Assembly (NCBI GenBank): GCA_000004985.1
Contig: GG738854.1
DNA from: Naegleria gruberi
Taxonomy: Eukaryota
Direction: 5' to 3' (one strand)
Length of the DNA: 64,000 bases
Shown here: positions 7,214-56,975 of the stretch, piece after piece
Layout of the letters: each line of letters begins with the position of its first letter
How positions within the stretch are numbered: position 1 is the first letter of the stretch
Made by a program: the position numbers and the translations under genes
The notes under the pieces: generated by a model
Database searches by the model: none
The model's input: only the letters and a program-made list of their open reading frames with translations
What the model was told of the DNA's origin: nothing

Positions 7214-7284
7214 GGGGGCGAGGGGGAATCGAACCCCCGGCCACAGCTTTGGAGGCTGCGATGTTACCATTACACCACCGCCCC
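7214..7284 (-). tRNA. tRNA-Trp (anticodon CCA)
   Basis: Reverse complement reads GGGGCGGTGGTGTAATGGTAACATCGCAGCCTCCAAAGCTGTGGCCGGGGGTTCGATTCCCCCTCGCCCC. It has a 7-bp acceptor stem, D-arm, anticodon loop CTCCAAA and T-arm GGGGG-TTCGATT-CCCCC. No intron. Confidence 0.85.
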
Positions 7285-11861: not shown

Positions 11862-11934
11862 GGGGATGTAGCTCACATGGTAGAGCGCTTCTTTAGCATG
11901 GAAGAGGTACGGGGATCGATACCCCGCATCTCCA
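11862..11934 (+). tRNA. tRNA-Ala (anticodon AGC)
   Basis: GGGGATGTAGCTCACATGGTAGAGCGCTTCTTTAGCATGGAAGAGGTACGGGGATCGATACCCCGCATCTCCA. Acceptor GGGGATG/CATCTCC carries the diagnostic G3:U70 pair. Anticodon loop TTAGCAT; T-arm CGGGG-ATCGATA-CCCCG. 73 nt, no intron. Confidence 0.9.
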
Positions 11935-12004: not shown

Positions 12005-13738
12005 TTAATGAATGTCACCTCCAATGAAATTCAACCGACTTCCAATATTTTCCAATATTATTGGAACATACTCAACAGCTTCTCCGTCAATTGTCAGATA
12101 ACTCTTCTTTGTTGAGGTTGGCTTAAAGTACATCGCCTTAATTTTACGATACAACCACTTGTCATGGTTATGATAGTCTCCCTTCTCACAGCTCAATAAA
12201 ATAGATAAAAGTTCAAGAGGACTGGCAGGCTTCTTCACATACATCAAATCGACAAGGTTGTCATTGTGGAAGCTTAAATGGGAAGCTACAAAATCTGCTG
12301 CAGCATGAGAGACATTACTTGCAAACATATAGGTGAAGGATTGGTCGACTTCTTCGTGCTTTACATATTCTTCAGTATTAACAATACTTGCCTGCTTTGA
12401 ACTATCCAAATATTGGGTCAGGCCCATTTCCTTTAACTCTTTAGAGAGGAATTGACGTGATATTGGACTGTCCAATTCAATTTTTGATTTCAAATCAGTT
12501 TGCACAAAGGCACTGTTAATAGAGTGATTTCCTTTGAATTCTTCAATTTCAGCTCCATTTTGTTTCTTCAAGTATTCATATTTCTTTGGTTGAACAATCG
12601 TCAAATTACCTGTATAGTATCTTCCAAAACAAGCGTACCATACAGATCCTAGAATGAATCTGAAATCTCCAATGAATCTAATAAATTCAGTATCAACATC
12701 CACATCGGCAATGCCACCAAAACTAAAACTAACAAATCCATAAGTCTTTCCTTTTCCAGGTTGGAAGACTGTCCACAAATCCATAGGAGAACAAAGACCT
12801 CTACAAATAAATAGAGTGCCTCTCTTGACCAAGCTTTCGTCATTGGTTATGGTGTTGAATCCAAACAAGAATTTTTGGAAATGACAACTCACTGCATTAC
12901 CACTTCCAGTTGGAATGACACCAAATCTCATCTTTGAAAGTAAATCCAATTTTCCTTCTTTTTCTAATCTTGGAATTAAACCATTTATGACTTCATTCAG
13001 AGTACCGTCTCCACCACAAGCTATAATTTCATTAACCTTACTCAAATCCAACTCTTTTTCACAATATTCTTTAATGTGACCAGATCTCTTAGAAACAATA
13101 AACTCAAAATTATTTCCAATATGACTTTCTGTAATCATTGGCTTGACAATATTCTCAAAATTTTGTAAAGATTGACCTGATCCACTCTTTGGGTTAATAA
13201 ATATCAATAATTTTCTATTGGATTGAACTAATTGCTCTCCAGATTCAACTCTAAATATTTTCTTCTTTAACAAATCAGCAAGTGATTGAACCAATTCCGA
13301 GCTAGGACCACTAATTGTCATCTTTTCCTTGTGATTGGTAATTAAATTCAAACTCAACAAGACCACTCTATCTTCTTCTTCGGAATGGACAGCATAAAAC
13401 TCATAGAGAGGAATAATTCTGGTTTCTTGCTGGTTATTACTGGAGGTAATAATTAATTGTTCATCAAAAACTTCAACAGTACAATCAGAAATTATATTTG
13501 AATAGCCTTGTCCGTCCTGTACTTTATAGTCTACTGTCATATTGGCAGCTTTCATCAAGGATTGTCCCTTCTTTTCCAAGTAGAGTATGTGTTTATCCCG
13601 ATTAGCATGTTTGTTGAGTATTTCACTCATCTGTTGATAGGGAGAGCTATTCTTCTTATTATTCTTCTTCCACAAATATCCGACAACTATCACCACAGCA
13701 ATCACCAAGGCAGTAAATAACCAAGTGTTATCCAACAT
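12005..13738 (-). CDS. Lipid kinase of the diacylglycerol/sphingosine kinase catalytic family (LCB5/SphK-like) with an N-terminal transmembrane anchor
   Basis: True ATG at 13738 (agaaaaaatATG); the ORF-track start at 13783 is TTG. TM helix WLFTALVIAVVIVVGYLW. DAGK_cat motifs KLLIFINPKSGSGQ ... IIACGGDGTLNEVINGL. 577 aa. The HIRA stop lies 64 bp upstream. Confidence 0.65.
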   Translation of the reverse strand: MLDNTWLFTALVIAVVIVVGYLWKKNNKKNSSPYQQMSEILNKHANRDKHILYLEKKGQSLMKAANMTVDYKVQDGQGYSNIISDCTVEVFDEQLIITSSNNQQETRIIPLYEFYAVHSEEEDRVVLLSLNLITNHKEKMTISGPSSELVQSLADLLKKKIFRVESGEQLVQSNRKLLIFINPKSGSGQSLQNFENIVKPMITESHIGNNFEFIVSKRSGHIKEYCEKELDLSKVNEIIACGGDGTLNEVINGLIPRLEKEGKLDLLSKMRFGVIPTGSGNAVSCHFQKFLFGFNTITNDESLVKRGTLFICRGLCSPMDLWTVFQPGKGKTYGFVSFSFGGIADVDVDTEFIRFIGDFRFILGSVWYACFGRYYTGNLTIVQPKKYEYLKKQNGAEIEEFKGNHSINSAFVQTDLKSKIELDSPISRQFLSKELKEMGLTQYLDSSKQASIVNTEEYVKHEEVDQSFTYMFASNVSHAAADFVASHLSFHNDNLVDLMYVKKPASPLELLSILLSCEKGDYHNHDKWLYRKIKAMYFKPTSTKKSYLTIDGEAVEYVPIILENIGSRLNFIGGDIH

Positions 13739-13802
13739 ATTTTTTCTAACAATGATTTTGGATAATAGTGTTAAATCGTTCAATTCGGAAGTATTGAGTG
13801 GT

Positions 13803-40751: not shown

Positions 40752-41709
40752 TTATTGACAACACTTTTTCTTTTCCTTTGGTTTGGTGTTGGTTTCTTGA
40801 TTGAGATTGACTTTGGTTGTGGTTGGTTCTGTAGGGGGTGTTTGTTGTGGAGTGGTTTCATCATTTTGAGCTTGTTCGAGTTTGTTATAATAATCAATGG
40901 CTATGGTTTGGAAAACTAAACATGATGATTAAAATTTGAGAAGGGTAATAATGTGATAACTTACTTTCCTTAACATTCAAATTTTCTTTCACACTAGCTC
41001 TGAAAAATTTAATACCCAACTCTGTGGCAAGTACTTCTGCTTCTGAACTATTGAAATGTGTCAAATAAAAATTCGAAATAAACTTACGGCTGTATGACAG
41101 CTTGGTCTATCAAATCAATCTTATTTTGAATTAAAACTTTACATAAATTAGTGTCGTCACATTGAGTATCCACTTTTTCATTCCAAGCTTTGATGGCTTC
41201 GAAACTTCTACGATCAGTTGTTGAAAATACCAGAATGGCTCCTTTGGCTCCTCTATAGTATTGTCTGGTCATGTCAGCAAATTCTAAATTCCACACACAA
41301 AATTAGTTTTCATTAATTAAATATATTTACCTTCCTAAAATAATACAGTTATTAATTACTCAACATTCCAATATCGTTTTTTGATAAACTTACTTGTCCA
41401 GCAGTGTCCCACAACATGAAAGTTACTATTTATCAATTAAAAGTTTGATGAAATTAAAAGGTTTGATGAAGGCAAGTCATTAAAAATCCATCAAATATTA
41501 ATTCCATTCTACATACCTGCCTCGTTTATAGGATCGGGTATATATTGTTGTTTTTCTTTGAAAGCAACTCCAATAGTTTGTCTATAATCAGGATCATATT
41601 TTGAATCGACAAATCTTCGGACCAAACTGGTTTTACCAACTTGACCGTCTCCAACAATAATTACTTTCATATGTTCTGTTATTATTTTCCAAATATAACA
41701 ATTGTTCAT
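40752..41709 (-). CDS. RAB23: Rab23-like small GTPase, 6 exons including a 4-nt micro-exon
   Basis: Exons are 41709..41517, 41425..41394, 41334..41331 (GAAG), 41283..41088, 41047..40965 and about 40914..40752. Introns are 91, 59, 47, 40 and about 50 nt (GTATGT, GTAAGT, GTAAAT, GTAAGT, GTAAGT donors). Product is ..[90 protein letters not shown]...KKKCCQ*. Close to Rab23 ([34 protein letters not shown]..). C-terminal CC prenylation motif. Confidence 0.75.
41331..41334 (-). CDS. 4-nt coding micro-exon (GAAG) of the Rab23-like gene
   Basis: Flanked by a canonical acceptor (tattttag|GAAG) and donor (GAAG|gtaaatat). It is needed to connect phase-0 exon 2 (..WDTAGQ) to phase-1 exon 3 (aa ttt gct..) and it generates the conserved QEEF of switch II. 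Confidence 0.65.
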
Positions 41710-42604: not shown

Positions 42605-42985
42605 CTAATTGAACATATTTGGGTCAGTAGCCTTGACGAAACTCTTGACAGGACTCTTGAAAGCATGAGTCAATTTGTTTATCGACTCTATCCAAACATT
42701 CCTTTCATTTTCCGATTCGGCATAAATCTGATAATCTCTACCAAGATTTGTCTTGACCAAGAATTCATAATAATTCTTTCCTTTGATATTTTCTACATTA
42801 CCAGTATTCTCAGCACATACAATAAGTCTCAGATAAATTCTATCAATAGGAGGAGCACTAGTCGATGAAACATCATCGAAATAGGCCAATTCCTCATCGG
42901 TCAGAATGAGCCATCTCTTCTTTGTCGACTTGAACAACCCTCCCTTCTTGAAGATGTATCCACTTCTATGTGTTTTAATAGCCAT
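42605..42985 (-). CDS. Small PH-domain protein (126 aa)
   Basis: ATG at 42985. GYIFKKGGLFKSTKKRWLILTDEELAYF..(beta strands)..ERNVWIESINKL matches the PH-domain fold pattern. Confidence 0.55.
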   Translation of the reverse strand: MAIKTHRSGYIFKKGGLFKSTKKRWLILTDEELAYFDDVSSTSAPPIDRIYLRLIVCAENTGNVENIKGKNYYEFLVKTNLGRDYQIYAESENERNVWIESINKLTHAFKSPVKSFVKATDPNMFN

Positions 42986-43529
42986 GTTGTTTGTGTTCGG
43001 TCTTTGTTCTTTGTATTTTGGAAAAAGAGGTGACAGTATTCCAGTGTTTACTACAAAGGTGTTGTGTTCTTTTTTCTGTTGAAATGAAGAAGTGATGTGG
43101 TCTGCTCTTTCGTAATGTTGAGAAACAGAAATAGCAAATTCTGCAATTCTCGAAGTTGACTGGATATTTTGGGAAGTGTTTGGTTAGACTTGGAAGAATC
43201 TGTCACAATATTGATATTGAGCAAGGTGGTGGGTTATCTATTGAATGTTAATAAACTCAAGATGATTCGGCTGGTATTTAAACTCAATATTTAATTTTAA
43301 AAAATGTCAAAAGTGTTCATAAAATGTTAGACTTGTCATTTCATAGGAGCTTTCAATGACATCCTTAAACAGCTAGACATTCCATATTTATTTTTTTGAG
43401 AATTTTGAATTCTCATTGTTATTTCATCATCTACAGCCTTTAACTAATACTTCCAGAACAGTATTTATTAATACAATTGATTTATTCAATATAGTATTAA
43501 TTTTTTTAATTATTGCAAATTTAAAAAAA

Positions 43530-44513
43530 ATGAATGAAAATGAATCGAGCCAATTTGATGAAATTCAAGTATTGCAATCAATGTACACTACCGAAGAATT
43601 AAAACCTCGGACGGGAATGGATAGATGTTGGCTCATTCCGATAAATGTTAATAATAATATTGATGATGATGAAACGACAGGATTGTTGGATTGTTTGGTT
43701 TTTGAATTTTGGTTTCATAGAAATTATCCTTCTGAATCGGAACCATTCTTTGAATTGAAAGGAGCTAAAAATTGGATTAATTTACCATATAATCAATTTA
43801 AGAATAATAACTATTTTGCTCAATCGGGATTGGATGAATTGGATAAAATTACTATAAAGGAGGCTCTGCAGATGGAGTTAAAGGCCATGTTCTCTCTTGG
43901 AGTACCAATTGCTTTTACTTGGATTGAGTTTTTGAGAAATGATTTATCGAACATGTTGGACGTAAATGAGATTTATAATCATGTTAAATTGAATCAAAAG
44001 GTTGTATCAATTCAACCAAATTCAAGAAAGTCTAACGAGGATAAAATCTCAACAAGGGTATTGGATATTATTCATGGGGAATCATTCACAGAAAAGAAAT
44101 CCAAATTTGTTGGACATGTGGCAATTGTAAAATCTTTGGAAGATGTCAACTTGATGCTGTCTCAATTATTGGAAGATGATAAAGTGGCAAATGCTACTCA
44201 CAACATTTATGCATATAGAATACGGCAAGGTGATCAAATTTTGGAAAATAGAGATGACGATGGAGAGACTGGAGCTGCTGATCAAATTCTTTATCTGATG
44301 CAAATCTCCAATGCAGAGAATGTATGCTGTGTGGTGACAAGATGGTATGGTGGTATAAAATTGGGAGCAGATAGATTCAGAGTAAGTAGTTCATTTCTAA
44401 TTGTTCATTGAACTAGGTTATCCATGATGAAACAATGAAAATTGAAATAGATCATTACAAACGTTGCCAAAAAAGTACTGCAGGATAATAACTTTATTGC
44501 TACGAGAAAGTAA
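43530..44513 (+). CDS. IMPACT: IMPACT/Yih1 homologue (RWD plus UPF0029 domains), 2 exons
   Basis: Exon 1 is 43530..44381 (aaaaaaaATG). The intron is 44382..44450 (69 nt, GTAAGT..AAATAG, phase 0). Exon 2 is 44451..44513. RWD-like N-terminus (EIQVLQSMYTTEEL..). UPF0029 core GHVAIVKSLEDVNLMLSQLLEDDKVANATHNIYAYRI...TGAADQILYLMQ..VVTRWYGGIKLGADRFR|IITNVAKKVLQDNNFIATRK*. Confidence 0.75.
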
Positions 44514-44628
44514 TCATTTCCATTGCAGCAATCGAAACATTTTGATTTCTTCTAGATTTCATCAAGATAATGATTTTGATCTTTTCAATTTCCCGCCTTT
44601 TTTTATTTGTTTTTAACTTGAATAAAAA

Positions 44629-45489
44629 ATGAGTCAAAGCCCACCTTCTGTTACATCCTCTATTGAAAACCAATTTTTGGATGACCAAATCTTTATCGGA
44701 GTCAGTGGTATGATTGGTTCAGGTGAGTATAATATCAATTTCGTCTGTTGTTTAACAATAATTTAATTAATAATAGGAAAGGTAAATATTTAGCCTATTT
44801 TTGTAAATTCATAAAATCAATATTCTTTAGACCACTCTCGCTAAAGCACTCGCTGAAAAGATTGGAGTTGGAGTACATTATGAACCAGTTATTGATAATT
44901 CCTACTTGGCTGATTTTTATTCTGATATGAAGACTTATTCTTTCCGTTTGCAAGTTTATTTGTTGAATAAGAGATTCGAACAACACCAGAAAATTATTTG
45001 GGGATCAAATGGAGGAGTTCAAGATAGAACTATCTATGAAGATGCTATCTTTGCCAAGGTTTTGATGGATACTGGAATGATGGAAAAGAGAGATTATGAA
45101 ACCTATGTTTCCCTTTTCAGAAACATGTCGAAGGTATGTTGTTATTGTGGTGATTTTTAATGAAGCCTTTTATGTTAAAATAGTTTATGAAACACAATAC
45201 AATGATTATTCACTTGGATGTTTCTCCAGAAACAAGCATGGAAAGAATCAAGATGAGAGGAAGAGAATGTGAAAGTGGAATTACTCTCGAATATCTTCAA
45301 AAGTTGCATAGTGGATATGAAGAATGGCTCACCAAGATTTCAAAGATTATTCCAGTTATTAAGGTTAATTGGAGTCAATTCAGAAGTCTTGAAAATGTTT
45401 TGGAAGAAGTTATGAAAGCCTATAATCAAATTCAAAATATTCAACATGTTACTTTTGAAAATAAGGATACCAGCAGTACAGTTCTCTAA
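44629..45489 (+). CDS. Deoxyribonucleoside kinase (dCK/dGK/TK2 family), 4 exons including a 5-nt micro-exon
   Basis: Exons are 44629..44722, 44777..44781 (GAAAG), 44831..45133 and 45184..45489. Introns are 54, 49 and 50 nt (GTGAGT, GTAAAT, GTATGT donors). Spliced product is ..IFIGVSGMIGSGKTTLAKALAEKIGVGVHYEPV...GGVQDRTIYEDAIFAKV...RIKMRGRECESGITLEYLQKL.. It shows the P-loop, the ERS-like DRTIYED motif and the Arg-rich lid typical of dNKs. About 236 aa. Confidence 0.75.
44777..44781 (+). CDS. 5-nt coding micro-exon (GAAAG) of the deoxynucleoside kinase gene
   Basis: taataatag|GAAAG|gtaaatat. Joining ggt tca g + ga aag + acc act gives G-S-G-K-T-T, the Walker-A/P-loop. A single-intron model shifts the frame into a stop. 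Confidence 0.7.
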
Positions 45490-45660
45490 ACATACAAGAT
45501 TCACTCTTTCAGAGATTTTACATTATAGTCTTGAATAATACTCAAAACTATCATTGGAAAAATGATCCAACATGAAAGGATCAAAGATTTTGAAGAGTTT
45601 ATAAAAACACTTAGTTTTCTCGATTCATCTATCGGCATTCTTATGTACATTGCCTGTATT

Positions 45661-46792
45661 TTACACATTTTCAATCCCTCCAACTTTAGCTGATTCACTT
45701 TCTAATAATTGTTGCCAAGAAATACTAAGAACAACCATTCCTCTCGTCACAACTGGTTCTGTTTTGGCCAAATCTTTCAGCTCATCAATCATCATTACTA
45801 ATTCTTGAGCTACCTCATTATTTTCACTTCGTCTTTCTTCGTCAGCCAAAAACTTTATACAATAAATAAAATCGTCCACTGCCAGGATGTCATCTTCGTT
45901 CTGGTGGTGAATTGTCACAGAGCCCGAGCAACAAAAAAGTGATAAGGCATTCTCTAGTACTGTAAACAATGAATGGGCTGTAAGGGTGATGCAATAAATA
46001 ATGAATTTGTTGTACTCAATTGCAGATTCATTCTCCATAGACCTAGACTTTTCAATAAGAACTTCCAATATTTTTGGTTGTATGGCAACCCTATTTCCAA
46101 GAATTGTTTTAAGTCTGTCAATATTGACTAATCCATTTGGTTGAAGGATTCTGGTCTTTAAAACTAGATCATACATCTGAGAGACACTTTCCAGAGTTAA
46201 CCAATCTTTACTTCTTTCCCCATAGTCTATTGATTGAGATTAGAATTTTGAACATGAATAAATACAAACCCTTTTCTTCTTCCTCAAAGAACTTAATGGC
46301 AATTTTTATGGATTCCAAATCAAGGGGGGAGTTGGCATCAATCTTACGTTTCAATCTATCCCTAATCATTACTTTTCCTAATTTTTTAATTACTGACTGA
46401 AGGGCTGTTGTTATTTGTTGACTTGTTTCCTTATCTACTCCACTCAGAGTAGACCTGCTCGAAAGATTTGATGAAGGTCTCGATGTTTCCGAGCTGTTTG
46501 TACGATCCCTATACGAAGATAAAGGACGAGTATCTTCGTCATAGGCATGGTCAAACCTTACTTGTCTCCTCTCACTCATCCTACTACTTGAACGTAAAAC
46601 ACTCTCCCTATTTGTTGTTTCCTCTTCATCCTCAACACTATTTGTTTCAAATTCATCACCACTCATCCCAAGCCTAGTAAATTTATTTCTCTTCTCTCCT
46701 TCTCCATCTTCCTCAATATTAAATTCATTATTATTCTCTTCGCCATATTCTCCATCAGAGAGTTCATCCATATCCACACTTTCTCGAATCAT
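45661..46792 (-). CDS. Hypothetical protein (about 365 aa), 2 exons; acidic/Ser-rich N-terminus and a helical C-terminal half (possibly EF-hand-like)
   Basis: Exon 1 is 46792..46270 (acataaaaATG), the intron is 46269..46227 (43 nt, GTTTGT..CAATAG, phase 1) and exon 2 is 46226..45661. Junction reads ..KFFEEEEKG|DYGERSKDWLTLESVSQMYDLVLKTRIL... Confidence 0.5.
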
Positions 46793-46930
46793 TTTTATGT
46801 AGTGTCGACAATTGATGGTATTTTGTTTTGCTTGTTTTTTTTTGCAACTTTTTAGGGTAAATTTTTGGCGCCAAAGTTCGCTTTCATGAAGTTTTAAACA
46901 ATTAGCTGTAAAGTTTGAAAGAAGATTAAT

Positions 46931-48042
46931 TTATTGCTCAGCAGATTCATCTTCCACTTGCTCACCTTGATTCTCTTGATGTTTCCTCTTTCGTTTTGGA
47001 ATGATTTTTTCAAGAGCTTGACCCCAAATTTCAAAATTAGTGAGCTCTGGTTTGGTTTGTTTCAATTCGATACAATCAGCAATGATTTCTACACATTGGT
47101 TGGTGGTCAGAACACTACATGCCTTCATGTCAATGTGCTTATCGAGTGGGAATTTAGCTGTTGGAATGTTATATTCTTTGGTGGCAATTTCATTACACAG
47201 ATTCTTGTGTCTGTTTCTATCAATAATACCTCCACTATTATTTTGTAATGAATATTTAAATTGTAAAATTTGAAAACTTACATTACATAGACATGTCCTT
47301 TTTCAAATTCTGTAATTTCATTCTCAGCATCAGCAGAAAGATAAATCACCTTATTTTCCTTCAATTTGTCCTCAAATTCCTTTGTAAAATGTTGATCTGT
47401 TAATTTCATCATCCACTTTTCAGGAAATCCTTCAAATTTCTTTAAACTATTGTATAATTCACCTTGTAAGGATGTAAATGTCATATAGAAAGGATTCTCC
47501 ATTCTCTTATAGGCAGCATAGCATTTTCCAAGTTGTTGAGCCAATGAAATAACTTCATTATTTGTCATCTTATCATTAAAGGAACAATCCACATTTATGC
47601 AAACATTGCAATCATTGGTTATTCCATTTTCTGTGGCTTGTTTCAACTTGTTGATGAGGTTCTCCTTTTTCATTCTTTGTGAACGAATTCTTTCTTCCTT
47701 CTTCTTTTTATTTTCTTCCACCAATTTTTCAAATTCCTCTGGAGCCAATTCGTCTCTCATCTTGGTGAAAAAATCATCACTATTCTTTTTCTTTTGTTCT
47801 TGTTTAACTTCCTTTTTTTGCTTTTTATGTTTCTTGAAATTATTCTTCCTGGTTTCCCATCTTTCCTTTCTCTTTTGCAATTTTTCATCCTTTGATGGTT
47901 TGTTTTCCGAATTTTCAGAAGTGTCATTACTGGCTTCCGATGGTGGTAATGTTATATTATTTTCTGCCATTGTTGATTGTTCCGATTTTTGTTCTTGCTC
48001 GACAAAATTTGATGAATTTCCTTCTGTTTGATGTTCAGTCAT
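46931..48042 (-). CDS. TRM10: tRNA (guanine9-N1)-methyltransferase TRM10 homologue (SPOUT class), 2 exons
   Basis: Exon 1 is 48042..47282 (tcaaaaaaATG), the intron is 47281..47235 (47 nt, GTAAGT..AATAG, phase 2) and exon 2 is 47234..46931. K/E-rich N-terminal region, then ..ITNDCNVCINVDCSFNDKMTNNEVISLAQQLGKCYA.. and ..GHVYVIGGIIDRNRHKNLCNE..FPLDKHIDM..VLTTNQCVEIIA.., the TRM10 SPOUT signatures. Confidence 0.7.
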
Positions 48043-48140
48043 TTTTTTGAATTTAAAAAGTGCAATTTTGTAATTTCATAAATATTTGAAATATATTTTG
48101 TTAAAACTTGAAGGGAGAGTGGTATTTATTTATGAGTCAA

Positions 48141-51100
48141 TTAAATGACAAATTCATTTTCAACCTTTTCATTGATAGTAATGAAAGGAATTTGTGTTTC
48201 CTTAACAATGGAGGGACCATCAACTGGACACGATTTACCAATCATTTCATCGAGACGTTTACTGGCATTCTTGAATTCTAATTGCCAGTAGAGTTGAGTC
48301 TTTTCACTTCCATCATTCATTGCTTCGGCCAATTCTAAACGAGCCTTGTGCCAATTTTCATAGGTCTCTTCAAGGAGATTGAGCCTTTTGTAGAGGGCAT
48401 TTCTTTGGTCTGCTTCTTCTTGGGTAAAGATTGGATTGATTTCTGACAATTTGAATCTTCCTTGTTTGATATCTTGGATGTTAAATTCAATTTGCCTAAC
48501 CTTCATTTGAAGTGTTGCAATTTCACTTTCCTTTTCTGCCTTATCTACTGATCGTTTGAGTCTTTCTAACTTTCTTTGTTTCTTGAGTTTCTTTTCTTCG
48601 AGGTGTGTCAAGTTTTCATTCACTGCCTCTTCGATAGCAGTTTGTTGAGCCTTATCTTCAATGGCAATCAATTGATTCTTGAGTTGGTGCTTGTTGATTC
48701 TATAGAGACAGTTCAAGTGGAATTTTTGACCTGATGGGAATACATAGAAGAAGTAATTCTTTCTCTCGTTTGGATCTTGAAGGTTAGGAAGGAGGACTCT
48801 TGATTTACACCTTTCACAAGTGTCATCATAGTCAATATCATAGTAAATATTCATAGATGATAAATCATTTCTGATCAATTCAGCATCATTGGTGGCATCT
48901 CTCATTTGGACTTCAACTCTGTTATTTTGGAATGAATAGGTATCCAAAATCGATTCAACATCTTTCAAGAGTTCATCGAGTTGAATCTTGGATGGGAAAT
49001 ATTTGATAACATCATCCAACAATAAGACATCACCAAAGTCTGTAATGAGATCGAGTGCTTTCTTGTAATTTTCTTCCTTGACATAGTATTTTACAATCTT
49101 GATAGCAAGTTTACGTTTGAGTTCTGGGTCTTCAACAAATTGAAGAACTGTTTCTTCTGCAAGCTTGACATTGTTAACTTTAGAGTCAAGAGCCAAGTCA
49201 ACTGCTTCCTCATAGAGTTCCAAAAGTCTGTATAACAATACACATGCTTTCCATTTTCTTCCTTCAATAGCCAATCTGAGTGCATATTCTTTAGTAAAGT
49301 AGATATTTTCGGATTCTTTAGTTTCCTTTAGGTAAGTTTCTAACAAGTCAGTATTTCTTTGATTGACCAGCAAGTAGACAAAGAGATCGTGAACAGTTCT
49401 ATTTTCATTCTTTTGATCCTCAATACACCATTTCAAATATTCTAATACTTGAGATTCCTCTTGTCTAACAGATCTTCTTCTTGTTTGACCAGCTTGAGAT
49501 CTGGTAATGTAGTCATATTTCAATATGGCTGGGACCAAATCTCTTGGGTTAAGGAATTGCAAACGTTTGAATGATTTAACAATTTCATCTCTCTTCTCAT
49601 AATTCATCAAAAGTGGAGTGTATCTGTACCAAATCAAGTTTTGAGGAGAAATACCTTCAGACTTTTCAGAGAAGGCATTTGGCTCAGTACAAAAGCTATT
49701 CAGGATAGTGTAGGCATTCTCGTAGTATCCAAGTTCCTTAGAGTGATTGGATTCGTATTCAGAGCTCTTAGCCATAGTAACACAATATTGAATAATTGTC
49801 AAATAATCACCAATAGCACTTGCAAAGAAGAGGAATTCTCTGACAAAGTTATTACTCAAAAAGATGTCATAAACAACGTCCTTGGCTTTTGCTAACAATT
49901 CCTTCTTATTGTAGGTAAACTTTCTCATAACAGCCTTAATTTTGTGAAGTTGTTGTTCTGCCTTGGTTTTTTCTTCCAATTGTTCTCTGTATTGATCTTC
50001 AGAGCATGCAACAGTAATAAATTTACCCATGATATGTCTCTGTTGATTCATCTTGAAGCACAATAATTCAACAATCCAAACAGCAAGAATGACACTCTCA
50101 GGACATTCTTCAATTTTCTTATCATTCTTCTAATTTCAAAGTTAGAAAATTCATAAAATTATTGCAAACTTACAAATCTGTGAAGCATATAGTACAAGTA
50201 GTTGTAGAGACCATTCTTCTTATCTTCTGGATCAACTTCCATGAATTTCATGGCAATTTCTTCAAAGTTTCTGTTTGTTCTGGCATAATCAAGAGCAGCA
50301 GTGTTGAAATCTCCCTTCTTAAAATGGTGATCAGCTTTAGCAGAGTAGATAGCCATTCTATTTTCCTCTGAGTTCATATCAAAAAGAGCTGACAAGTGAA
50401 GGGCCATCTTGAAGTATTCAGACTTGATCGATTCCATATCCTTGTCTTCAATTTCCAAAGCAGCATCAAGGAAAATTCTCCAAAATCCTTTAGCTTGATC
50501 ATCAATTGAAACTCTGTATAATTTCGAAGAGTTGAAAACAAAAACTGATTGATTACTCTCTTCTTTGGATTTGTCAATAAAGGATCTGTCAATCTTTACA
50601 CCGAGTGTATTAATCATTCTAACACCAAGAACGTGCTTACTCAACAATGAATACCTTGAATTACTTGGTGGAAGGAATGCAGGTTGCATAATAACATAAA
50701 ATTCGTCCTTGTAGCACACAAACAAATGGAAGCTGTTGAGTTCAATATCAACTGGTACATCATTTGGATTCTTGTGAGGTAATTTACCGGCCTTGTCGAG
50801 AGTCTTTTGAGAATCAGCGTAAATTCTACCAAAGACAACTTGTTTGGCTGTAATACAGGCAAAACAGAGTGAGTCATAGATTTTAAGAACACTCTTGTGC
50901 ATAATCTTTGGCTTCTCCAAATCGAGATGATCATCCTCATCGTAATTCTTGAAAGATGGAATGGCTGATTGCTCTGGGCCATACCTATCGAAAATATCAG
51001 TAATTTCACCACTTCCAGTAAATACTGCAACACCAGCAACACTTGAAACAAAAGCCATAAATTCGTTTCTTTCCTTAATTTCTGCAAATTCAATACTATC

Positions 51101-52456
51101 AATTCCAAAACCTTGCAAGTGAGAGTGAATAATAATTTGCTTCTCATTGTACAAGGTATCCATATTATAAACTTCTTCGCAGAGCATCTTGTCCATATTC
51201 TTCTTAAAATTAATGTGCCAGTCGTATTCTTCTCCTTCCACATTAAAGTCAACCTTGTAGATAGCACGTCCAGGAGAGACAGCCATAAACAACACCTTTC
51301 TTGTGGTGATATCATCTTGAACAATAGAGTGTGGAAAACCAATAGCTGTAATATATCGAGATCCATCCAAAACTAAATTCTTTTGTGTTCCAATTAATTT
51401 TGGTTCGAATTTGTAATAGTCAAAAGTGAGAGGATCCTTCACATCGGCCTCACTATCAGATTGTTCCAATTTTTGCTTATCAATATCAATAACATAATGA
51501 ACATAGGTTTCAGTTTCAGGATTTTCCAACACTACATAACATTCGAATCCATATGGAATACTGAGGAAAATCTTCTTGACATTGTAACCTTTCAATTCCT
51601 TTCTCTTATCAAACTTGACTTCAATACAGTGATCGTACTCATCGACAAACATTATTCTATCCTTAAAAGCAACAACGTGTAAAATTCTATCAGAAATTTC
51701 ACTCGATTCCACACTTGACATGGCATAATCAATAATTTGACCATAAAGTTTCAAACGATCAACTTCACCAATGGTAAATTTGGATTGCATTTCACGTCTT
51801 TCCTGAATAAAACGTTGAACATATTCATTCTCCTGAGAAACCATGAATGTTTGATTTTTAGATTCAGATTGATCATCTTCCTCATCATCAGAAAAATCAT
51901 CATCAGTTAAACTTTCACTTTCAGATTCTTCCTTTTCTTCTGCTTGTGGTTTAACATCTTCATAATTGGATTTTAATTCAGAAACTTTGGCATCATATTC
52001 AGCATCTTCGTGATCGACAGAGTGTGCCTTCCATCCATCAAAACCACCATCATCACTCATTGAATAATCAGAATAGAAAGAAGCTCCCGTCATTAAATCT
52101 CTCTTTCTCAATCTACTTTCTTCCTTTCGTTGGAGCATGAGTCTTTCCTGTTCCAATCTTTCCTCTTCATTATCTCCAAAGAATCGATTGAACATTTTAC
52201 GAAGTCCACCTCTCTTTCTCTTTGGTTCTTCCTTCTTGTTGTCATTTGATGGAGAAGGAGGATTTTGTGTTGTTGTATTGTTATTGGAAGAATCATTGTT
52301 TGTTGTTGTTGTTGTTGCTGAATTATTTGCTTCTTGATTTATTGTTGTTGAAGGTTGTTGATCGGCAACTGTGGGTGATGCTGATTGTGGAGATGATGTT
52401 GTTGGGAGAACTGTCAGGGTAATGTCATCAGCAGCTGCAAGGTTTGATGAAGACAT
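48141..52456 (-). CDS. VPS18: VPS18/Pep3 (class C Vps, HOPS/CORVET core subunit) with a long low-complexity N-terminal extension, 2 exons
   Basis: Exon 1 is 52456..50174, the intron is 50173..50130 (44 nt, GTAAGT..AATTAG, phase 0) and exon 2 is 50129..48141. It shares with human VPS18 the motifs YALRLAIEGRKWKACVLLYRLLELYEEAVDLAL (human YALRLCAEHGHHRACVHVYKVLELYEEAVDLAL) and FEEIAMKFMEVDPED (human FEEIALKFLEARQEE). RING-H2-like CERCKSRVLLPN..FYVFPSGQKFHLNCL, then a coiled coil. N-terminal S/T/N/D/E-rich region of about 250 aa. About 1420 aa. Confidence 0.8.
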
Positions 52457-52517
52457 TTTTTATTATGATAGACAGCTGATGGGCAGTGCAAGACCTGAAG
52501 TGGGTTTTTCAGTTCTT

Positions 52518-55346
52518 TTACTTCCAATATCCTGCAAATCTGTGCATAATATCATGAACTGCAAATAGGGTTCTTTCAGAATCTGTAATAACACTCCTCA
52601 TGAATTGAATGGCTTCCTCCTCAGTGAGTTCGAGACATAGACGTTGCTGAACTGTGAGAATGTTAAGGAGCTGCTCACCAATTTTTGAATCTCTCGAAAT
52701 ACCATGATCAATATTTGGAATACCTGCATCAATCATTAAAATGAACAAATTGAGAATCATTCTAGAGTGTTGTCTTAATATATTGTAGGCGCTGCAGCAA
52801 TTTTTGATGAAACTCTTGTACCTTTCACTTCCAGAACCTCCCATTCCCAAGACCATGTCAGCACAGAGTTTCATTGGTGGAGGATACGGTTTTGGATCGT
52901 GGCCTAGAATGAATCCAAAATCAATGTGGAATAGTTTTCCATCAGGAGTCAGCAAAATATTATCCAAGTGTCTATCTCCAATTCCAAGAATATATGTAAT
53001 GACACAATATCCTGCACAACTCTTCATAAAGTTATCGAGAACTTCGTTCATCTCTTGATGAGATTTGTTCTTGTTCTGGTCTTTGAGCCATTCTTCAATG
53101 CTTTGTTTTTCAATTATTTTGGCAAATGGCGTGCTTGGAAGAACACACTCCAAAAATCCCTCCTGCTTTCCACAAGCTAACACTCTGTATGGTGTCAACT
53201 TTAAATCCATACCATTGTCTTTCAGAATAGTATCCATAGTATTAATAATTTGAATAATTAACTGATCTTGTCTCAAATCGTCGCCAATTTTAAAGATTGC
53301 ATGATATGTGCTCTTAGGACTGGTCTTGAATGCCAACTTCATTGGTCTAGCATTACTACTGAAAATAGTCACACCTGTAGGATCTACATTATTAACAGAA
53401 ACTCTTGGATCCAATGGAAGTATCAGTGATGAATTATCTTCAAATATACCATCCCATGAAGAGACTTTTCTTTCTGCTATTTCTCTGAATTTTTCCTTTA
53501 CAATTTCAGTGCTATTTCTATTGGTCTTACCAAAGAGACAAATTTCACTAAGGTTTTGAACCATCTTTGTTTGTCTTTGTAACATTTTTACAGTCTCGTG
53601 TTGTTTTTTCTAAATTAAATTTTTAGAATAATGTCATTCAATGTATTTAAACTTACCGTCTTGTAATTTTCTAGCACTCTAGCTCTGTAAGAATAGTAAA
53701 ATTCACCCATTATGCTATCCTCACATGCTATTGTCAAGTACCAGTATAAATCGTTCGATACCATTAAAGATCTCTCTGCCTTCTCAATTAAAAGATCTGC
53801 CAATTTACAAGTTCTCATATCATGCTCATATCTCAATGCTTGAACTAATTGGAGTAAGACAGACAATATATCTTGTTCTGGGGCGTCTTTCAGTACATTA
53901 ACAGCGTGATTTCTTACAGAATCCACTCCTTTGAAATATTTACTCAGCAAGAACAGAGCATCAGGTATATCAATCTTGGTCCAACCTTGCATTAATGAAG
54001 CAGCTTCCTTAGCTTCTCTGTCAATACTCCAATCCACAGATCGTAAAAATTTTGTAAGAGCTTTGGTTCCAATTCTCTTTTCTGATTGCAAGAATTTTCT
54101 ATACCTCCACAATAATGTCTTTTCATCCACTGAAATTTCTTGCAATGGTGACTTTTTCACAATTGCCTCAAGCATTTTCTTATCCCTTGCTTCTGGGTAA
54201 AGTAATAGATTATCATCCAAATTCATGGTCATCTTGAAATGCTTTACGGCTGATGGATTTTCCTTATCCCTGGCAACTTCTGGGTCTATGAAGAATTGAA
54301 CACCCTTTGTTTCAAAGCACTTGATCATTTGCTCTGCTCCATTGATATTACTCTGTTGTTTAAAGCTATTGAGTGTTGTAGGAGGAACTTCACGATTGAG
54401 CATGGAATAAGTTTCATTTTCAAAGAAAATTACTGGTGCTGAAAAATCACAAAATTCCAAATCCAAAAAAGCTATTCCTTTTCTCACAAGCAGACCCTCT
54501 CGTCTCATATTATTGATGGATTTTAATGAGGCCTCTCTCAGCCACTTTGAATTTTCATCCCATATATCCTTACAGGAATCAATTTCAATTTGAGTGAGTA
54601 AATCTGTAACAATTCCATCTTCTTCAAACACCGATAAAGGATTAGGTGCTACCCGTGGTGAAAGTAGGCATTTGTGATTGCCCGATCGCATAAGTCTTTA
54701 GATTCAGTTATTAATTCCATAAATTTCATCAAAATTACATACTTGCTTCTCAAATCAAAAACTGAATAGGAAGAACTGGCAACTATAATAGGCTTTCTTG
54801 GAGTAAATATATCATAAATTGTAACACATAATACAGTATCTACTGGAAGTTCGCTATACTTTACAGGAAATGAAATCCATTCCTTCCAACTGAAAATATT
54901 AATAATACAAATCAATAAATTCATACCTTTTCACAGATTTCATTTGATTTTTGTAACATGTCCTTGATGGTGGACATATCAGATGATTATTTACATAAAG
55001 GCCACATTCTACAAATAAATCCTCTAATTTTGGCAATAAAGAAGAGGAAGGCATTGTCGGATCAATAATAAATTCATTAATTTGATTTGCATAATTATTC
55101 TGATTCACTGAAACACTAAAATCAATTAAAACACCACTATTTGATTGATCAGTAGTAATTTTTCTAGCAAAGAAATCAGCATCCAACACTCCATCAATAT
55201 CTCCACTACATTAATTCCGATCATATAGATGATTTATATTTAAATATATTTGTTGTTGTATTCCGAACCTACATCCTAACAGAAAAGTAACAATCCAAAT
55301 CACAACTCTTGATGGCTTTTATAGCCTTCAATCCGTTGAGTTTCAT
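52518..55346 (-). CDS. VPS34: Class III phosphatidylinositol 3-kinase VPS34 (PIK3C3), 5 exons
   Basis: Exons are 55346..55273, 55205..54927, 54889..54743, 54695..53657 and 53609..52518. Introns are 67, 37, 47 and 47 nt (GTAGGT, GTATGA, GTATGT, GTAAGT donors). Spliced product: MKLNGLKAIKAIKSCDLDCYFSVRIGDIDGVLD.. (compare human YSCDLDINVQLKIGSLEG), C2 domain ..WKEWISFPVKYSELPVDTVLCVTIYD.., helical domain ..LLQLVQALRYEH.., and catalytic domain ..YHAIFKIGDDLRQDQLIIQI..GDRHLDNILLT..HIDFGFILG... About 876 aa. The stop lies 61 bp from the VPS18 start. Confidence 0.85.
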
Positions 55347-55646
55347 TTTTTTGAATTTTGCTTTTTATTAATAGCAGAAATTCTAATCGAAATACTGGAT
55401 GGAAAATAATTGAAACGTGATTAAGGTGGATTAAACGTGAATTTGTTTCATATGTTTGTTGCGAATTGTTGAGTTGATTGGGAATAAGAAATTAAAGTGG
55501 AATAGTTTAAGAATTATTGAGAATATTGAGTGTTTTAAATGTCTCGAAAAGGCAAAAATGTGTGTGATTGAGAAAGCACTTTCAATATTGAATTGAACTC
55601 GTATTCCAATCATAATGTACAAAATTTCAAGTGAGTGGATGAACAA

Positions 55647-56975
55647 TTAATCAAAAACTTTGAAAATAAATTGCATGAAACGATCAGAATAACTGCTTGG
55701 TGGAACTGTCGAGATGGTAGATGAATCATTCTTCATACTCTTGATATTGTTTGCTGCCTTCTTTCTCAGACCATACTTGGTGAAATAATCAATAAATCCA
55801 AAGTAATAAAATTCCTGAGAGTTTTTGGTGTTGGTAATTATTTGAAATTTGTCTCTTCCTTTTTCATTATTAGATTTGATATGATTTTGAATTGCTTCCA
55901 AAGTTCCCTCTTTTGGTGCCACAATGCCTGTGATGAGGGAATAGTCCATTACTATTTCACAAATTAGAAAGAGTTAGGTAAATTTGGATTATTTGAATTA
56001 CAAACCTTCACATGATGTGAAAAAGTTAACATCCTTCTTGAGTTGGAAAAGCATTTCTATTGACAAATCTTGCCCAATGTGGAACTTCATATTTTCATTA
56101 ATTAAATCCAAATCCTTCTTGATATTTTCTCCTTCCTTTGCAATTCTATCTGTTGTCGATCCTTTCAAATCATAAATCTTATTCATTTCAAAACCAACAT
56201 TAGGATCTTGAAGTTTGGCTCCAGAATTTGCAGTTGTTGGTGATGAAACTGAGCTGACACTCGAAGTTGTAGCAGTTGGTGCCTGGAACAAGTATTTCAT
56301 CACTACAAATCTAAAATCAGAGCCGTCCAATGTAAATTTGTGAAGTCCAAAAACTGGTACAATCAATGTATTTGGTTCATTCTTGATATATTCCATTAAG
56401 AGAGGTAAAATAACATTTCTAATAGTCTTGCTTTCATCCTTTGTCACTGTCTTGATGAGTAATTTCTTATCCTCTGTTACTGCAAACAAGGAACCACTTT
56501 TCCCATTCATTGTCTTCCATTCAAACTTGGTGTGACCTATTGAATTGAAATATTCTCTATCATTCATGCCACATGTTTTTCTCAAGTTTCCAAAATCGAG
56601 AGGACGAAAATCCTTGAATGAAAAAGCTTTGCAACTGTTGGTTTGTTTTTACATCATCACGAATCACATCAGACGTTTGATTGAAGTGCCAAAAAATCCA
56701 ATAATGGCCATGAAAAACCATCACGGATACAGATTATTTTAAATGATTTTACAACCTTTCCAATAAGAAGATTAGTATAATACTTACTCATTAGTCTTTG
56801 GCATCTTTAGTGATTTTTCCTTCTCAACTTCCTTTGCATATTTTTCACCTTCCTCAGCAGTTCTCTTCAATGAATATCTAATCACTGCTTTAATTTTAAG
56901 TTCAATTTCTTTAAAACGTGGTGAGTCCAAGGAGTTGTCACCAGGGCTATTTGTTGTTGGTGTTGAAGCCTTCAT
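55647..56975 (-). CDS. Phosphatidylinositol phosphate kinase (PIPK catalytic domain; small PIP4K/PIP5K-like), 3 exons
   Basis: Exon 1 is 56975..56788 (aaagaaaaATG), intron 56787..56635 (153 nt, GTAAGT..CAACAG, phase 2), exon 2 56634..56006, intron 56005..55952 (54 nt, GTTTGT..AATAG, phase 1) and exon 3 55951..55647. Motifs: FKDFRPLDFGNLRKTCGM, NGKSGSLFAVTEDKKLLIKTV, LLMEYIKNEPNTLIVPVFGLHKF, FRFVVMKYLF, MDYSLITGIV and YYFGFIDYFTKY. About 373 aa. The long first intron contains a coding-like stretch and is the least certain boundary. Confidence 0.7.

What the first reader, a model, noticed from the sequence alone, without database searches (positions are those of the whole stretch)
48141..56975. 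Same-strand cluster of three endolysosomal/phosphoinositide genes: VPS18, VPS34 (class III PI3K) and a PIP kinase; a Rab23-like GTPase lies 7 kb upstream
VPS18 (HOPS/CORVET), VPS34 (which makes PI3P for endosomal and autophagic trafficking) and a PIPK are consecutive genes on the minus strand in under 9 kb. The VPS34 stop is only 61 bp from the VPS18 ATG. Functionally coherent clustering of non-paralogous genes is uncommon in eukaryotes. It could reflect co-regulation, polycistronic or read-through transcription, or conserved microsynteny.
Basis: inference. Interest (0 to 1): 0.55.

Follow-up and report, generated by a model that had tools for sequence, protein, structure and literature searches.

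The report
Chance neighbours in compact Naegleria genome
Three membrane-traffic and lipid-kinase genes do sit side by side in this Naegleria gruberi sequence, but tight spacing is normal in this compact genome and relatives keep unrelated neighbours together at least as well, so this looks like ordinary inherited gene order, not a functional cluster.

Summary
The window is Naegleria gruberi. On the minus strand, with clean GT-AG gene models, lie:
- a 373-aa PIPK (56975-55647);
- an 876-aa class III PI3K of the VPS34 family (55346-52518);
- a 1423-aa VPS18 (52456-48141).

The VPS34 stop is 61 bp from the VPS18 ATG. A Rab23-like GTPase lies 6.5 kb away.

The functional-cluster reading is not supported:
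- **Spacing.** 61 bp is the low end of the normal range. Unrelated head-to-tail pairs in the same window have 64, 74 and 98 bp.
- **Synteny.** In N. fowleri the whole stretch PIPK...VPS34-VPS18...TRM10...dNK...IMPACT is collinear with the window. Unrelated genes separate PIPK from VPS34 there (2 genes) and in N. lovaniensis (5 genes).
- **Deeper relatives.** VPS34-VPS18 adjacency holds in four Naegleria sequences. In Willaertia the two genes are about 172 kb apart. In Acrasis neither VPS18 nor a PIPK lies within 10 kb of VPS34. The unrelated VPS18-TRM10 adjacency does survive in Willaertia.
- **PIPK type.** It resembles type II/I PIP kinases, not the endolysosomal PIKfyve.
- **Genome architecture.** A 2026 preprint reports no polycistronic architecture in Heterolobosea.

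Best reading: chance adjacency kept as neutral genus-level microsynteny. Transcript data were not available, so read-through remains untested. Interest is low.

The parts
55647..56975 (-). PIPK gene (373 aa, 3 exons: 56975-56788, 56634-56006, 55951-55647). A small stand-alone PIP kinase domain protein.
   Evidence: Spliced model. It is 100% identical over 100% of its length to the NCBI N. gruberi 'phosphatidylinositol-4-phosphate 5-kinase' P0039. Pfam PIP5K domain. PDB matches: type II PI5P4K 121 bits, type I PIP5K 80 bits, PIKfyve 30 bits.
55347..55646 (-). PIPK-VPS34 intergenic spacer (300 bp). N. fowleri has 2 extra genes at this position and N. lovaniensis has 5.
   Evidence: tblastx finds no relic of those genes in the window.
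52518..55346 (-). Class III PI3K (VPS34 family, 'paralogue A'; 876 aa, 5 exons).
   Evidence: Model. Pfam PI3K_C2, PI3Ka and PI3_PI4_kinase domains. PDB PIK3C3 E 1e-129 against class I/II about 1e-63. The N. gruberi fragment P0002 is 100% identical over 61% of the model.
52457..52517 (-). VPS34-VPS18 spacer, 61 bp. An AATAAA hexamer ends 2 nt before the VPS18 ATG.
   Evidence: In the alignment with three other Naegleria spacers (77, 83 and 118 bp) only the AAAAAATG start context is conserved.
48141..52456 (-). VPS18 (HOPS/CORVET core subunit; 1423 aa, 2 exons, one 44-nt intron at 50173-50130).
   Evidence: Model. The only PDB hits are VPS18 (8dit_C) and yeast Pep3 (7zu0_C). Orthologues: N. fowleri 79% and W. 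magna 68% identity. No Pfam family is detected.
48043..48140 (-). VPS18-TRM10 spacer, 98 bp.
47278..48042 (-). First coding ORF of a TRM10-like tRNA m1G methyltransferase. It is the functionally unrelated downstream neighbour of VPS18. This adjacency is conserved in an ENA Naegleria sp. and in Willaertia magna.
   Evidence: Pfam tRNA_m1G_MT. Neighbours in L007 and L008.
43416..47248 (.). Rest of the block that is collinear with N. fowleri: IMPACT-like RWD/UPF0029 gene (43416-44411, +), deoxynucleoside kinase (44906-45489, +) and an unknown gene (45661-46792, -).
   Evidence: Pfam; collinear tblastx matches to L006.
40752..41670 (-). Rab23-like small GTPase (5 exons, C-terminal CCQ). It lies 6.5 kb from the VPS18 stop, on the transcriptionally downstream side.

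Best explanation
This is an ordinary stretch of the compact Naegleria gruberi nuclear genome. It carries about 35 genes in 64 kb.

The three genes are independent, monocistronic, intron-containing genes that happen to be neighbours: a small type I/II-like PIP kinase, one of two class III PI3K (VPS34-family) paralogues, and VPS18. The adjacency is inherited gene order, that is, neutral microsynteny. It belongs to a larger block (PIPK to IMPACT) that is collinear between N. gruberi and N. fowleri and is made up mostly of unrelated genes.

VPS34-VPS18 has stayed adjacent within the genus because the 61-119 bp spacer is a tiny target for insertions and breakpoints. Selection for co-regulation is not needed to explain it. 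With so short a spacer, the VPS18 promoter and 5' end must overlap the 3' end of VPS34. This arrangement is inferred, not shown, and the same would apply to other unrelated pairs in the window.
For: **Shown**
1. Organism and gene models.
2. Head-to-tail spacers in the window, counted from the ORF table and each ORF's first ATG (plus 7, 8 and 10): 61, 64 (HIRA to DAG kinase), 74 (U-box/Ank to TPR), 98, 107, 114, 133, 161, 166, 196, 218, 260, 279, 279, 300, 644, 760, 825 bp. So 61 bp is the low end of the normal range.
3. N. fowleri order (L006/L009): RasGEF - PIPK - [erythromycin-esterase-like, RNase_T] - VPS34 - 83 bp - VPS18 - [zf-A20/Ank] - TRM10 - unknown - dNK - [F-box, 2OG/actin] - IMPACT. 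All seven N. gruberi genes are collinear and five extra genes are interspersed. Only 3 of the 6 N. gruberi adjacencies are retained. VPS34-VPS18 is one of the three. The others are the unrelated pairs TRM10-unknown and unknown-dNK.
4. N. lovaniensis (L001): five unrelated genes (9 kb) lie between PIPK and VPS34, and VPS34-VPS18 is adjacent (118 bp).
5. ENA Naegleria sp. (L008): VPS34 - VPS18 - TRM10 - unknown.
6. Willaertia magna: VPS18 is followed by TRM10 after 50 bp. VPS34 is about 172 kb away on the same contig in the opposite orientation. The closest PIPK homologue is on another contig.
7. Acrasis kona and a JGI metagenome contig encoding a related VPS34: VPS34 has unrelated neighbours.
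8. The four Naegleria VPS34-VPS18 spacers share only the AAAAAATG start context.
9. The PIPK is nearest to type II and type I PIP kinases, not PIKfyve.
10. A 2026 preprint on Discoba reports about 2 genes per directon in Heterolobosea. It finds no heavy tail of long directons and an inter-/intra-directon spacer-length ratio of about 1, as in yeast (10.64898/2026.07.29.740908).

**Inferred (rough arithmetic)**
Assume about 15,700 genes, of which about 2.5% are membrane-traffic or phosphoinositide genes. Random gene order then gives about 10 adjacent pairs and about 0.25 consecutive triples per genome for this one category. Summed over some 20 comparable categories, a coherent triple is expected many times per genome.
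Against: - VPS34-VPS18 is the shortest head-to-tail spacer in the window. It is unbroken in all four Naegleria sequences examined, while both flanking junctions acquired insertions in the N. fowleri lineage.
- VPS34 and HOPS/CORVET act in the same endosome-to-lysosome pathway (established knowledge).
- Under a narrow, post-hoc definition of the category (about 40 genes), a chance pair would be expected only about 0.1 times per genome.
- No transcript or expression data could be examined, so functional read-through is not excluded.
Confidence: 0.78

Rival explanations
1. VPS34 and VPS18 form a transcriptionally coupled pair that selection maintains in Naegleria. The coupling would be read-through or dicistronic transcription, or a VPS18 promoter embedded in VPS34. 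Its effect would be that the PI3P-producing kinase and the HOPS/CORVET core subunit are expressed together.
For: The 61-bp spacer is the shortest in the window. The adjacency has the same orientation and short spacers (61, 77, 83, 118 bp) in four Naegleria sequences, while both flanks gained insertions. In N. gruberi an AATAAA hexamer ends only 2 nt before the VPS18 ATG. If it is used, the VPS34 3' end would fall inside VPS18.
Against: Unrelated pairs have spacers that are almost as short, at 64, 74 and 98 bp. The adjacency is absent from Willaertia and Acrasis, while the unrelated VPS18-TRM10 pair persists in Willaertia. No sequence element is conserved in the spacer, and the AATAAA is specific to N. 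gruberi. Heterolobosea are reported to have a yeast-like, non-polycistronic architecture. To my knowledge spliced-leader trans-splicing has not been described in Heterolobosea.
Confidence: 0.12
2. PIPK, VPS34 and VPS18 (with Rab23 nearby) form a selected three-gene 'phosphoinositide/endolysosome' cluster. It would be comparable to fungal or plant pathway clusters or to nematode operons.
For: The three genes are consecutive and co-directional in under 9 kb. All three stay within about 18 kb on one strand in N. fowleri and N. lovaniensis.
Against: In the other Naegleria species 2-5 unrelated genes are tolerated between PIPK and VPS34. The genes are dispersed in Willaertia and Acrasis. The PIPK is type II/I-like, not the PI3P 5-kinase PIKfyve, so the biochemical link to VPS34 is weak. 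Rab23 is generally linked to cilia rather than endolysosomes (established knowledge). It is separated from VPS18 by five unrelated genes, among them TRM10, dNK and IMPACT. The linkage is shared by the unrelated genes of the same collinear block.
Confidence: 0.04

Closest known systems
Conserved microsynteny blocks between Naegleria genomes. Collinearity of N. fowleri and N. lovaniensis is described in the Naegleria pangenome paper, PMC9928731.
   Same: Gene order and orientation are shared over a multi-gene block of mostly unrelated genes. Lineage-specific insertions occur between some neighbours.
   Different: That paper left N. gruberi out of its synteny analysis as too distant. Here a local block (PIPK to IMPACT) is shown to persist between N. 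gruberi and N. fowleri.
Polycistronic transcription units of Euglenozoa (trypanosomatids, diplonemids, euglenids), the sister group of Heterolobosea within Discoba.
   Same: Co-directional genes with short spacers. The genes of a unit are often functionally unrelated.
   Different: This directon has only 7 genes in a window that averages about 2.7. Heterolobosea are reported to have about 2 genes per directon with no heavy tail. The genes contain cis-spliced introns. No spliced-leader trans-splicing or polycistronic transcript is known or shown.
Eukaryotic functional gene clusters and operons, such as the yeast GAL and DAL clusters, fungal and plant metabolic clusters, and C. elegans operons.
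   Same: Non-homologous genes with a loosely shared theme lie next to each other on one strand.
   Different: The trio is not conserved as a unit. It does not form one biochemical pathway (the PIPK is not PIKfyve). No co-regulation is shown. Unrelated neighbours are conserved at least as well.

Membership tests
Class III PI3K (VPS34/PIK3C3) | Domain order: C2, then helical (PIK accessory), then PI3/4-kinase domain, with no Ras-binding or adaptor-binding domain. | tested here: met
   Pfam PI3K_C2, PI3Ka and PI3_PI4_kinase in that order along the exons. No other domains.
Class III PI3K (VPS34/PIK3C3) | Closer in sequence to VPS34 than to class I or class II PI3Ks. | tested here: met
   PIK3C3 437 bits (E 1e-129) and yeast Vps34 372 bits, against about 219 bits for class II and 213 bits for class I.
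Class III PI3K (VPS34/PIK3C3) | Single-copy 1:1 orthologue of canonical VPS34. | tested here: not met
   N. lovaniensis and W. magna carry a second class III paralogue (P0009, P0008). It scores higher against human PIK3C3 (563 bits). A rough NJ tree separates an A clade, which includes the window gene, from a B clade. The tree has no bootstrap support.
VPS18/Pep3 (HOPS/CORVET core) | Specific sequence similarity to VPS18 and not to the related subunits VPS11, VPS16, VPS39, VPS41, VPS8 or VPS3. | tested here: met
   The only PDB hits at E <= 0.1 are VPS18 (8dit_C, E 1.1e-38 with a profile) and yeast Pep3 (7zu0_C). They align in two collinear stretches covering VPS18 residues 379-899.
VPS18/Pep3 (HOPS/CORVET core) | N-terminal beta-propeller, alpha-solenoid and C-terminal RING-H2 with intact zinc ligands. 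| tested here: inconclusive
   The solenoid and the start of the RING align. The RING 'C-x-H' aligns to 'S-G-Q', which is invariant in the three heterolobosean sequences. The propeller was not modelled. Pfam detects no Vps18 family.
PIKfyve/Fab1 (endolysosomal PI3P 5-kinase) | Large protein with FYVE and CCT-like domains, and a kinase domain closest to PIKfyve. | tested here: not met
   The protein is 373 aa and has only a PIP5K domain. PIKfyve scores 30 bits, against 121 bits for type II PI5P4K and 80 bits for type I PIP5K.
Polycistronic unit / operon | Co-directional genes whose spacers are unusually short relative to the rest of the genome. | tested here: not met
   The genes are co-directional. 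The spacers of 61, 300 and 98 bp fall inside the window's normal range of 61-825 bp, and unrelated pairs have 64 and 74 bp.
Polycistronic unit / operon | A single transcript spanning the genes, or spliced-leader processing. | not testable with these tools
   No transcript data were accessible. The literature reports no polycistronic architecture in Heterolobosea.
Selected functional gene cluster | The cluster is conserved as a contiguous unit across related species, beyond background synteny. | tested here: not met
   PIPK is separated from VPS34 by 2 genes in N. fowleri and 5 in N. lovaniensis. The genes are dispersed in Willaertia and Acrasis. The unrelated VPS18-TRM10 pair is conserved more deeply.
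Selected functional gene cluster | Co-expression of the members. | not tested
   No expression data were examined.
Rab23 subfamily | Best match to Rab23 over other Rabs, and a C-terminal prenylation motif. | tested here: met
   Rab23 scores 162-171 bits, against 125 bits or less for Sec4, Rab35 and Rab1. The C-terminus is ...KKKCCQ.

The most novel reading that the evidence does not exclude
In the genus Naegleria, the divergent class III PI3K paralogue and VPS18 form a selected, transcriptionally coupled gene pair. VPS18 would be expressed by read-through from VPS34 or from a promoter embedded in it. This would be a rare functionally meaningful two-gene unit in a heterolobosean, the sister lineage of the polycistronic Euglenozoa.
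Probability: 0.08. Interest if true: 0.45.

Novelty: already known. Interest (0 to 1): 0.12.

Why it matters
It matters little. The result mainly shows that short spacers and thematically related neighbours in a compact protist genome are not evidence of operon-like organisation. The control is that the functionally unrelated VPS18-TRM10 pair is conserved more deeply than VPS34-VPS18.

If the minority reading were true, and VPS34 and VPS18 were transcriptionally coupled, it would bear modestly on how polycistronic organisation arose in Discoba.

There are also by-products for annotation. VPS18 is labelled 'hypothetical protein' in N. fowleri and W. magna. The NCBI N. gruberi VPS34 model lacks its N-terminal third. 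Naegleria and Willaertia carry two class III PI3K paralogues.

Tried and rejected
- **Pfam on VPS18.** Neither the exon ORFs nor the full-length heterolobosean proteins match any Vps18, Pep3 or RING family. The identification rests on PDB sequence and profile matches.
- **Transcript evidence.** I tried to look up the spliced 876-aa VPS34 in Logan and other assemblies, to see whether any contig spans VPS34 and VPS18.
- **Annotated N. gruberi locus.** The look-up through P0039 found nothing on record.
- **Literature.** I found no paper on Naegleria VPS34/VPS18 linkage. I found no usable statement on N. gruberi intergenic lengths. I did not pursue locus-tag searches for expression tables, because mapping the tags to usable co-expression data looked unlikely.
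- **RNA genes.** Rfam and tRNA scans find nothing in 47-58 kb, including the unusually long 153-nt first intron of PIPK.
- **Relics of inserted genes.** I looked for traces of the N. fowleri and N. lovaniensis intervening genes in the N. gruberi window and found none.
- **Willaertia C2 protein.** I considered whether the C2-domain protein upstream of Willaertia VPS18 is a VPS34 remnant. It shows no similarity.
- **Prokaryote-oriented tools.** The promoter/terminator scan and the phage, plasmid and defence libraries were judged irrelevant to a eukaryotic nuclear locus and were not run.

Full report
**Source and gene models**

The window is nuclear DNA of the heterolobosean amoeboflagellate Naegleria gruberi. 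A fragment annotated 'phosphatidylinositol 3-kinase [Naegleria gruberi]' is 100% identical to my VPS34 model. The annotated N. gruberi PIP kinase is 100% identical over 100% of my PIPK model. The window has 32-37% GC. It is gene-dense, with about 35 genes in 64 kb.

I read the minus strand and joined ORFs at GT-AG introns of 37-153 nt. This gave three uninterrupted coding sequences:
- PIPK: 56975-56788, 56634-56006, 55951-55647 (373 aa).
- VPS34: 55346-55273, 55205-54927, 54889-54743, 54695-53657, 53609-52518 (876 aa).
- VPS18: 52456-50174, 50129-48141 (1423 aa).

The finding's coordinates, 48141-56975, run exactly from the VPS18 stop to the PIPK ATG. The VPS34 stop is 61 bp from the VPS18 ATG.

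**Gene identities**

VPS34:
- It has the PI3K_C2, PI3Ka and PI3/4-kinase domains.
- It matches solved PIK3C3/VPS34 structures far better than class I or II PI3Ks: 437 bits against about 219.
- It is one of two class III paralogues in this lineage. N. lovaniensis and Willaertia magna each have a second copy (P0009, P0008).
- The N. lovaniensis second copy (P0009) scores higher against human PIK3C3, at 563 bits.
- A rough neighbour-joining tree puts the window gene in a faster-evolving 'A' clade.

VPS18:
- Pfam does not recognise it.
- It is annotated 'hypothetical protein' in N. fowleri and W. magna.
- The only solved-structure matches are VPS18 (8dit_C) and yeast Pep3 (7zu0_C).
- A three-sequence profile gives E 1.1e-38 in two collinear stretches covering VPS18 residues 379-899.
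- No other HOPS/CORVET subunit is hit.

PIPK:
- It is a minimal PIP5K-domain protein.
- It is nearest to type II PI5P 4-kinases (121 bits), then type I PIP5K (80 bits). PIKfyve is far behind at 30 bits.
- It is therefore not the kinase that acts on the PI3P made by VPS34, so the claimed functional coherence of the trio is only partial.

Rab23-like GTPase:
- It is real and lies at 41670-40752 on the minus strand. Rab23 scores 162-171 bits, against 125 bits or less for other Rabs, and the protein ends in CCQ.
- It lies on the transcriptionally downstream side of VPS18.
- Five unrelated genes separate it from VPS18.

**Is the tight spacing unusual?**

It is not. I took stop-to-next-ATG distances for head-to-tail pairs across the window from the ORF table and each ORF's first ATG. 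The values are 61, 64, 74, 98, 107, 114, 133, 161, 166, 196, 218, 260, 279, 279, 300, 644, 760 and 825 bp.

The 64-bp pair is HIRA followed by a DAG kinase. The 74-bp pair is a U-box/ankyrin protein followed by a TPR protein. Neither pair is functionally related. The three genes sit in a 7-gene same-strand run, while the window averages about 2.7 genes per run. Under random orientation, a run of 7 or more among 13 runs has roughly a one-in-five chance, so this is not notable.

**Is the adjacency conserved, and more so than background?**

I fetched the loci of the VPS34, VPS18 and PIPK homologues found in relatives. I compared them with the window by tblastn and tblastx.

| Genome | Arrangement |
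|---|---|
| N. fowleri | RasGEF - PIPK - [erythromycin-esterase-like, RNase_T] - VPS34 - (83 bp) - VPS18 - [zf-A20/Ank] - TRM10 - unknown - dNK - [F-box, 2OG/actin] - IMPACT |
| N. lovaniensis | Five unrelated genes (9 kb) between PIPK and VPS34; VPS34-VPS18 adjacent (118 bp) |
| ENA metagenomic Naegleria sp. | VPS34 - (77 bp) - VPS18 - TRM10 - unknown |
| Willaertia magna | VPS18 followed by TRM10 after 50 bp, preceded by a C2-domain protein; VPS34 about 172 kb away on the same contig in opposite orientation; nearest PIPK homologue on another contig |
| Acrasis kona and a JGI metagenome contig with a related VPS34 | VPS34 has unrelated neighbours |

In N. fowleri, every one of the seven N. 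gruberi genes from PIPK to IMPACT (window 43416-56975) is collinear, and five extra genes are interspersed. Three of the six N. gruberi adjacencies survive. VPS34-VPS18 is one of them. The other two are the unrelated pairs TRM10-unknown and unknown-dNK.

Three conclusions follow:
- The trio is not conserved as a unit.
- VPS34-VPS18 is a genus-level adjacency inside a larger collinear block of unrelated genes.
- The functionally unrelated VPS18-TRM10 adjacency is evolutionarily older than VPS34-VPS18.

This is the pattern expected from neutral microsynteny. Very short spacers are small targets for insertions and breakpoints. The 300-bp PIPK-VPS34 spacer and the 98-bp VPS18-TRM10 spacer were both invaded in the N. 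fowleri lineage. The 61-bp spacer was not.

**Signals in the spacer**

An alignment of the four Naegleria VPS34-VPS18 spacers shows no conserved element apart from the A-rich AAAAAATG start context. That context also precedes the ATGs of the other genes here. An AATAAA hexamer ends 2 nt before the N. gruberi VPS18 ATG. It is absent from the other species. Rfam and tRNA scans find nothing in 47-58 kb.

**Context from the literature**

A 2026 preprint analysed gene organisation across Discoba and reports three things for Heterolobosea (10.64898/2026.07.29.740908). They have about 2 genes per directon. They lack the heavy tail of long directons seen in Euglenozoa. Their ratio of inter-directon to intra-directon spacer lengths is about 1, as in yeast. 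That is a conventional monocistronic architecture.

[quoted passage not shown] It omitted N. gruberi as too distant (PMC9928731). I found no paper mentioning VPS34-VPS18 linkage in Naegleria.

**Chance estimate (inference, not computed on the genome)**

Assume about 15,700 genes, of which about 2.5% belong to a broad 'membrane traffic plus phosphoinositide' category. Random order then gives about 10 adjacent pairs and about 0.25 consecutive triples per genome for that category. Across about 20 comparable categories, coherent triples are expected many times per genome, and coherent pairs in most 64-kb windows. A narrower, post-hoc category would make the pair rarer, at about 0.1 per genome. That is the main residual argument for significance.

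**Verdict**

The interpretation as a functionally meaningful, co-regulated or polycistronic cluster is not supported. The 'conserved microsynteny' option is supported at genus level for VPS34-VPS18, but it is not specific to the functionally related genes.

The most likely mechanism is independent transcription of each gene, with regulatory sequences compressed into, and overlapping, the neighbouring gene's ends. This overlap is inferred from spacer length and is not shown. Transcript-level coupling of VPS34 and VPS18 remains untested. I give it about 0.1.

The genes are already annotated in public Naegleria genomes, and the phenomenon is ordinary. Interest is low.

Noticed in passing
window 52518-55346; P0009 (N. 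lovaniensis), P0008 (W. magna): Naegleria and Willaertia carry two class III PI3K (VPS34-family) paralogues. The window gene belongs to the more divergent 'A' copy: 437 bits against human PIK3C3, compared with 563 bits for the N. lovaniensis 'B' copy P0009. The B copy has a long low-complexity N-terminal extension. I did not check whether N. gruberi itself has B, or when the duplication happened.
   Followed up: partly
window 47278-52456; L007 10001-15473; L008 520-5911: The functionally unrelated VPS18-TRM10 head-to-tail adjacency (spacers of 98, 50 and 66 bp) is conserved from N. gruberi to Willaertia magna. It is older than the VPS34-VPS18 adjacency.
   Followed up: yes
L006 1915-3327; L001 8509-9921; L009 12506-13918: An erythromycin-esterase-family gene (Pfam PF05139, in my recollection a mostly bacterial family) lies between PIPK and VPS34 in N. 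fowleri and N. lovaniensis. It is absent from the N. gruberi window. It may be a lineage-specific insertion or a horizontal acquisition.
   Followed up: no
window 48141-52456 (VPS18 residues about 1199-1236): The VPS18 RING region is degenerate. Where the VPS18 in PDB entry 8dit has F-P-C-Q-H-A-F-H, the three heterolobosean proteins have the invariant F-P-S-G-Q-K-F-H, so a Cys and a His zinc ligand are lost. The protein also has a low-complexity N-terminal extension of about 225 aa and a long coiled-coil stretch after this motif. Pfam does not recognise the protein, and it is annotated 'hypothetical' in N. fowleri and W. magna.
   Followed up: partly
window 52518-55346 versus P0002: The public N. 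gruberi PI3K protein model (536 aa) covers only 61% of the 876-aa model derived here. The exons for the N-terminal C2 region (55346-54743) appear to be missing from that annotation.
   Followed up: partly
window 56635-56787: PIPK intron 1 is 153 nt, against 37-67 nt for the other six introns in the three genes. Rfam finds no RNA family in it.
   Followed up: partly
window 7214-7284 (-) and 11862-11934 (+): Two tRNA genes, tRNA-Trp(CCA) and tRNA-Ala(AGC), lie in intergenic regions.
   Followed up: no
window 12005-13783 (-) and 42605-42985 (-): There may be other lipid-signalling genes in the window. One is a diacylglycerol-kinase catalytic-domain protein (Pfam). The other is a short ORF that looks like a PH domain by eye; it was not checked against Pfam.
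   Followed up: no
window 52459-52464: An AATAAA hexamer ends 2 nt before the VPS18 ATG in N. gruberi only. If it serves as the VPS34 poly(A) signal, VPS34 mRNA would end inside the VPS18 coding sequence.
   Followed up: partly
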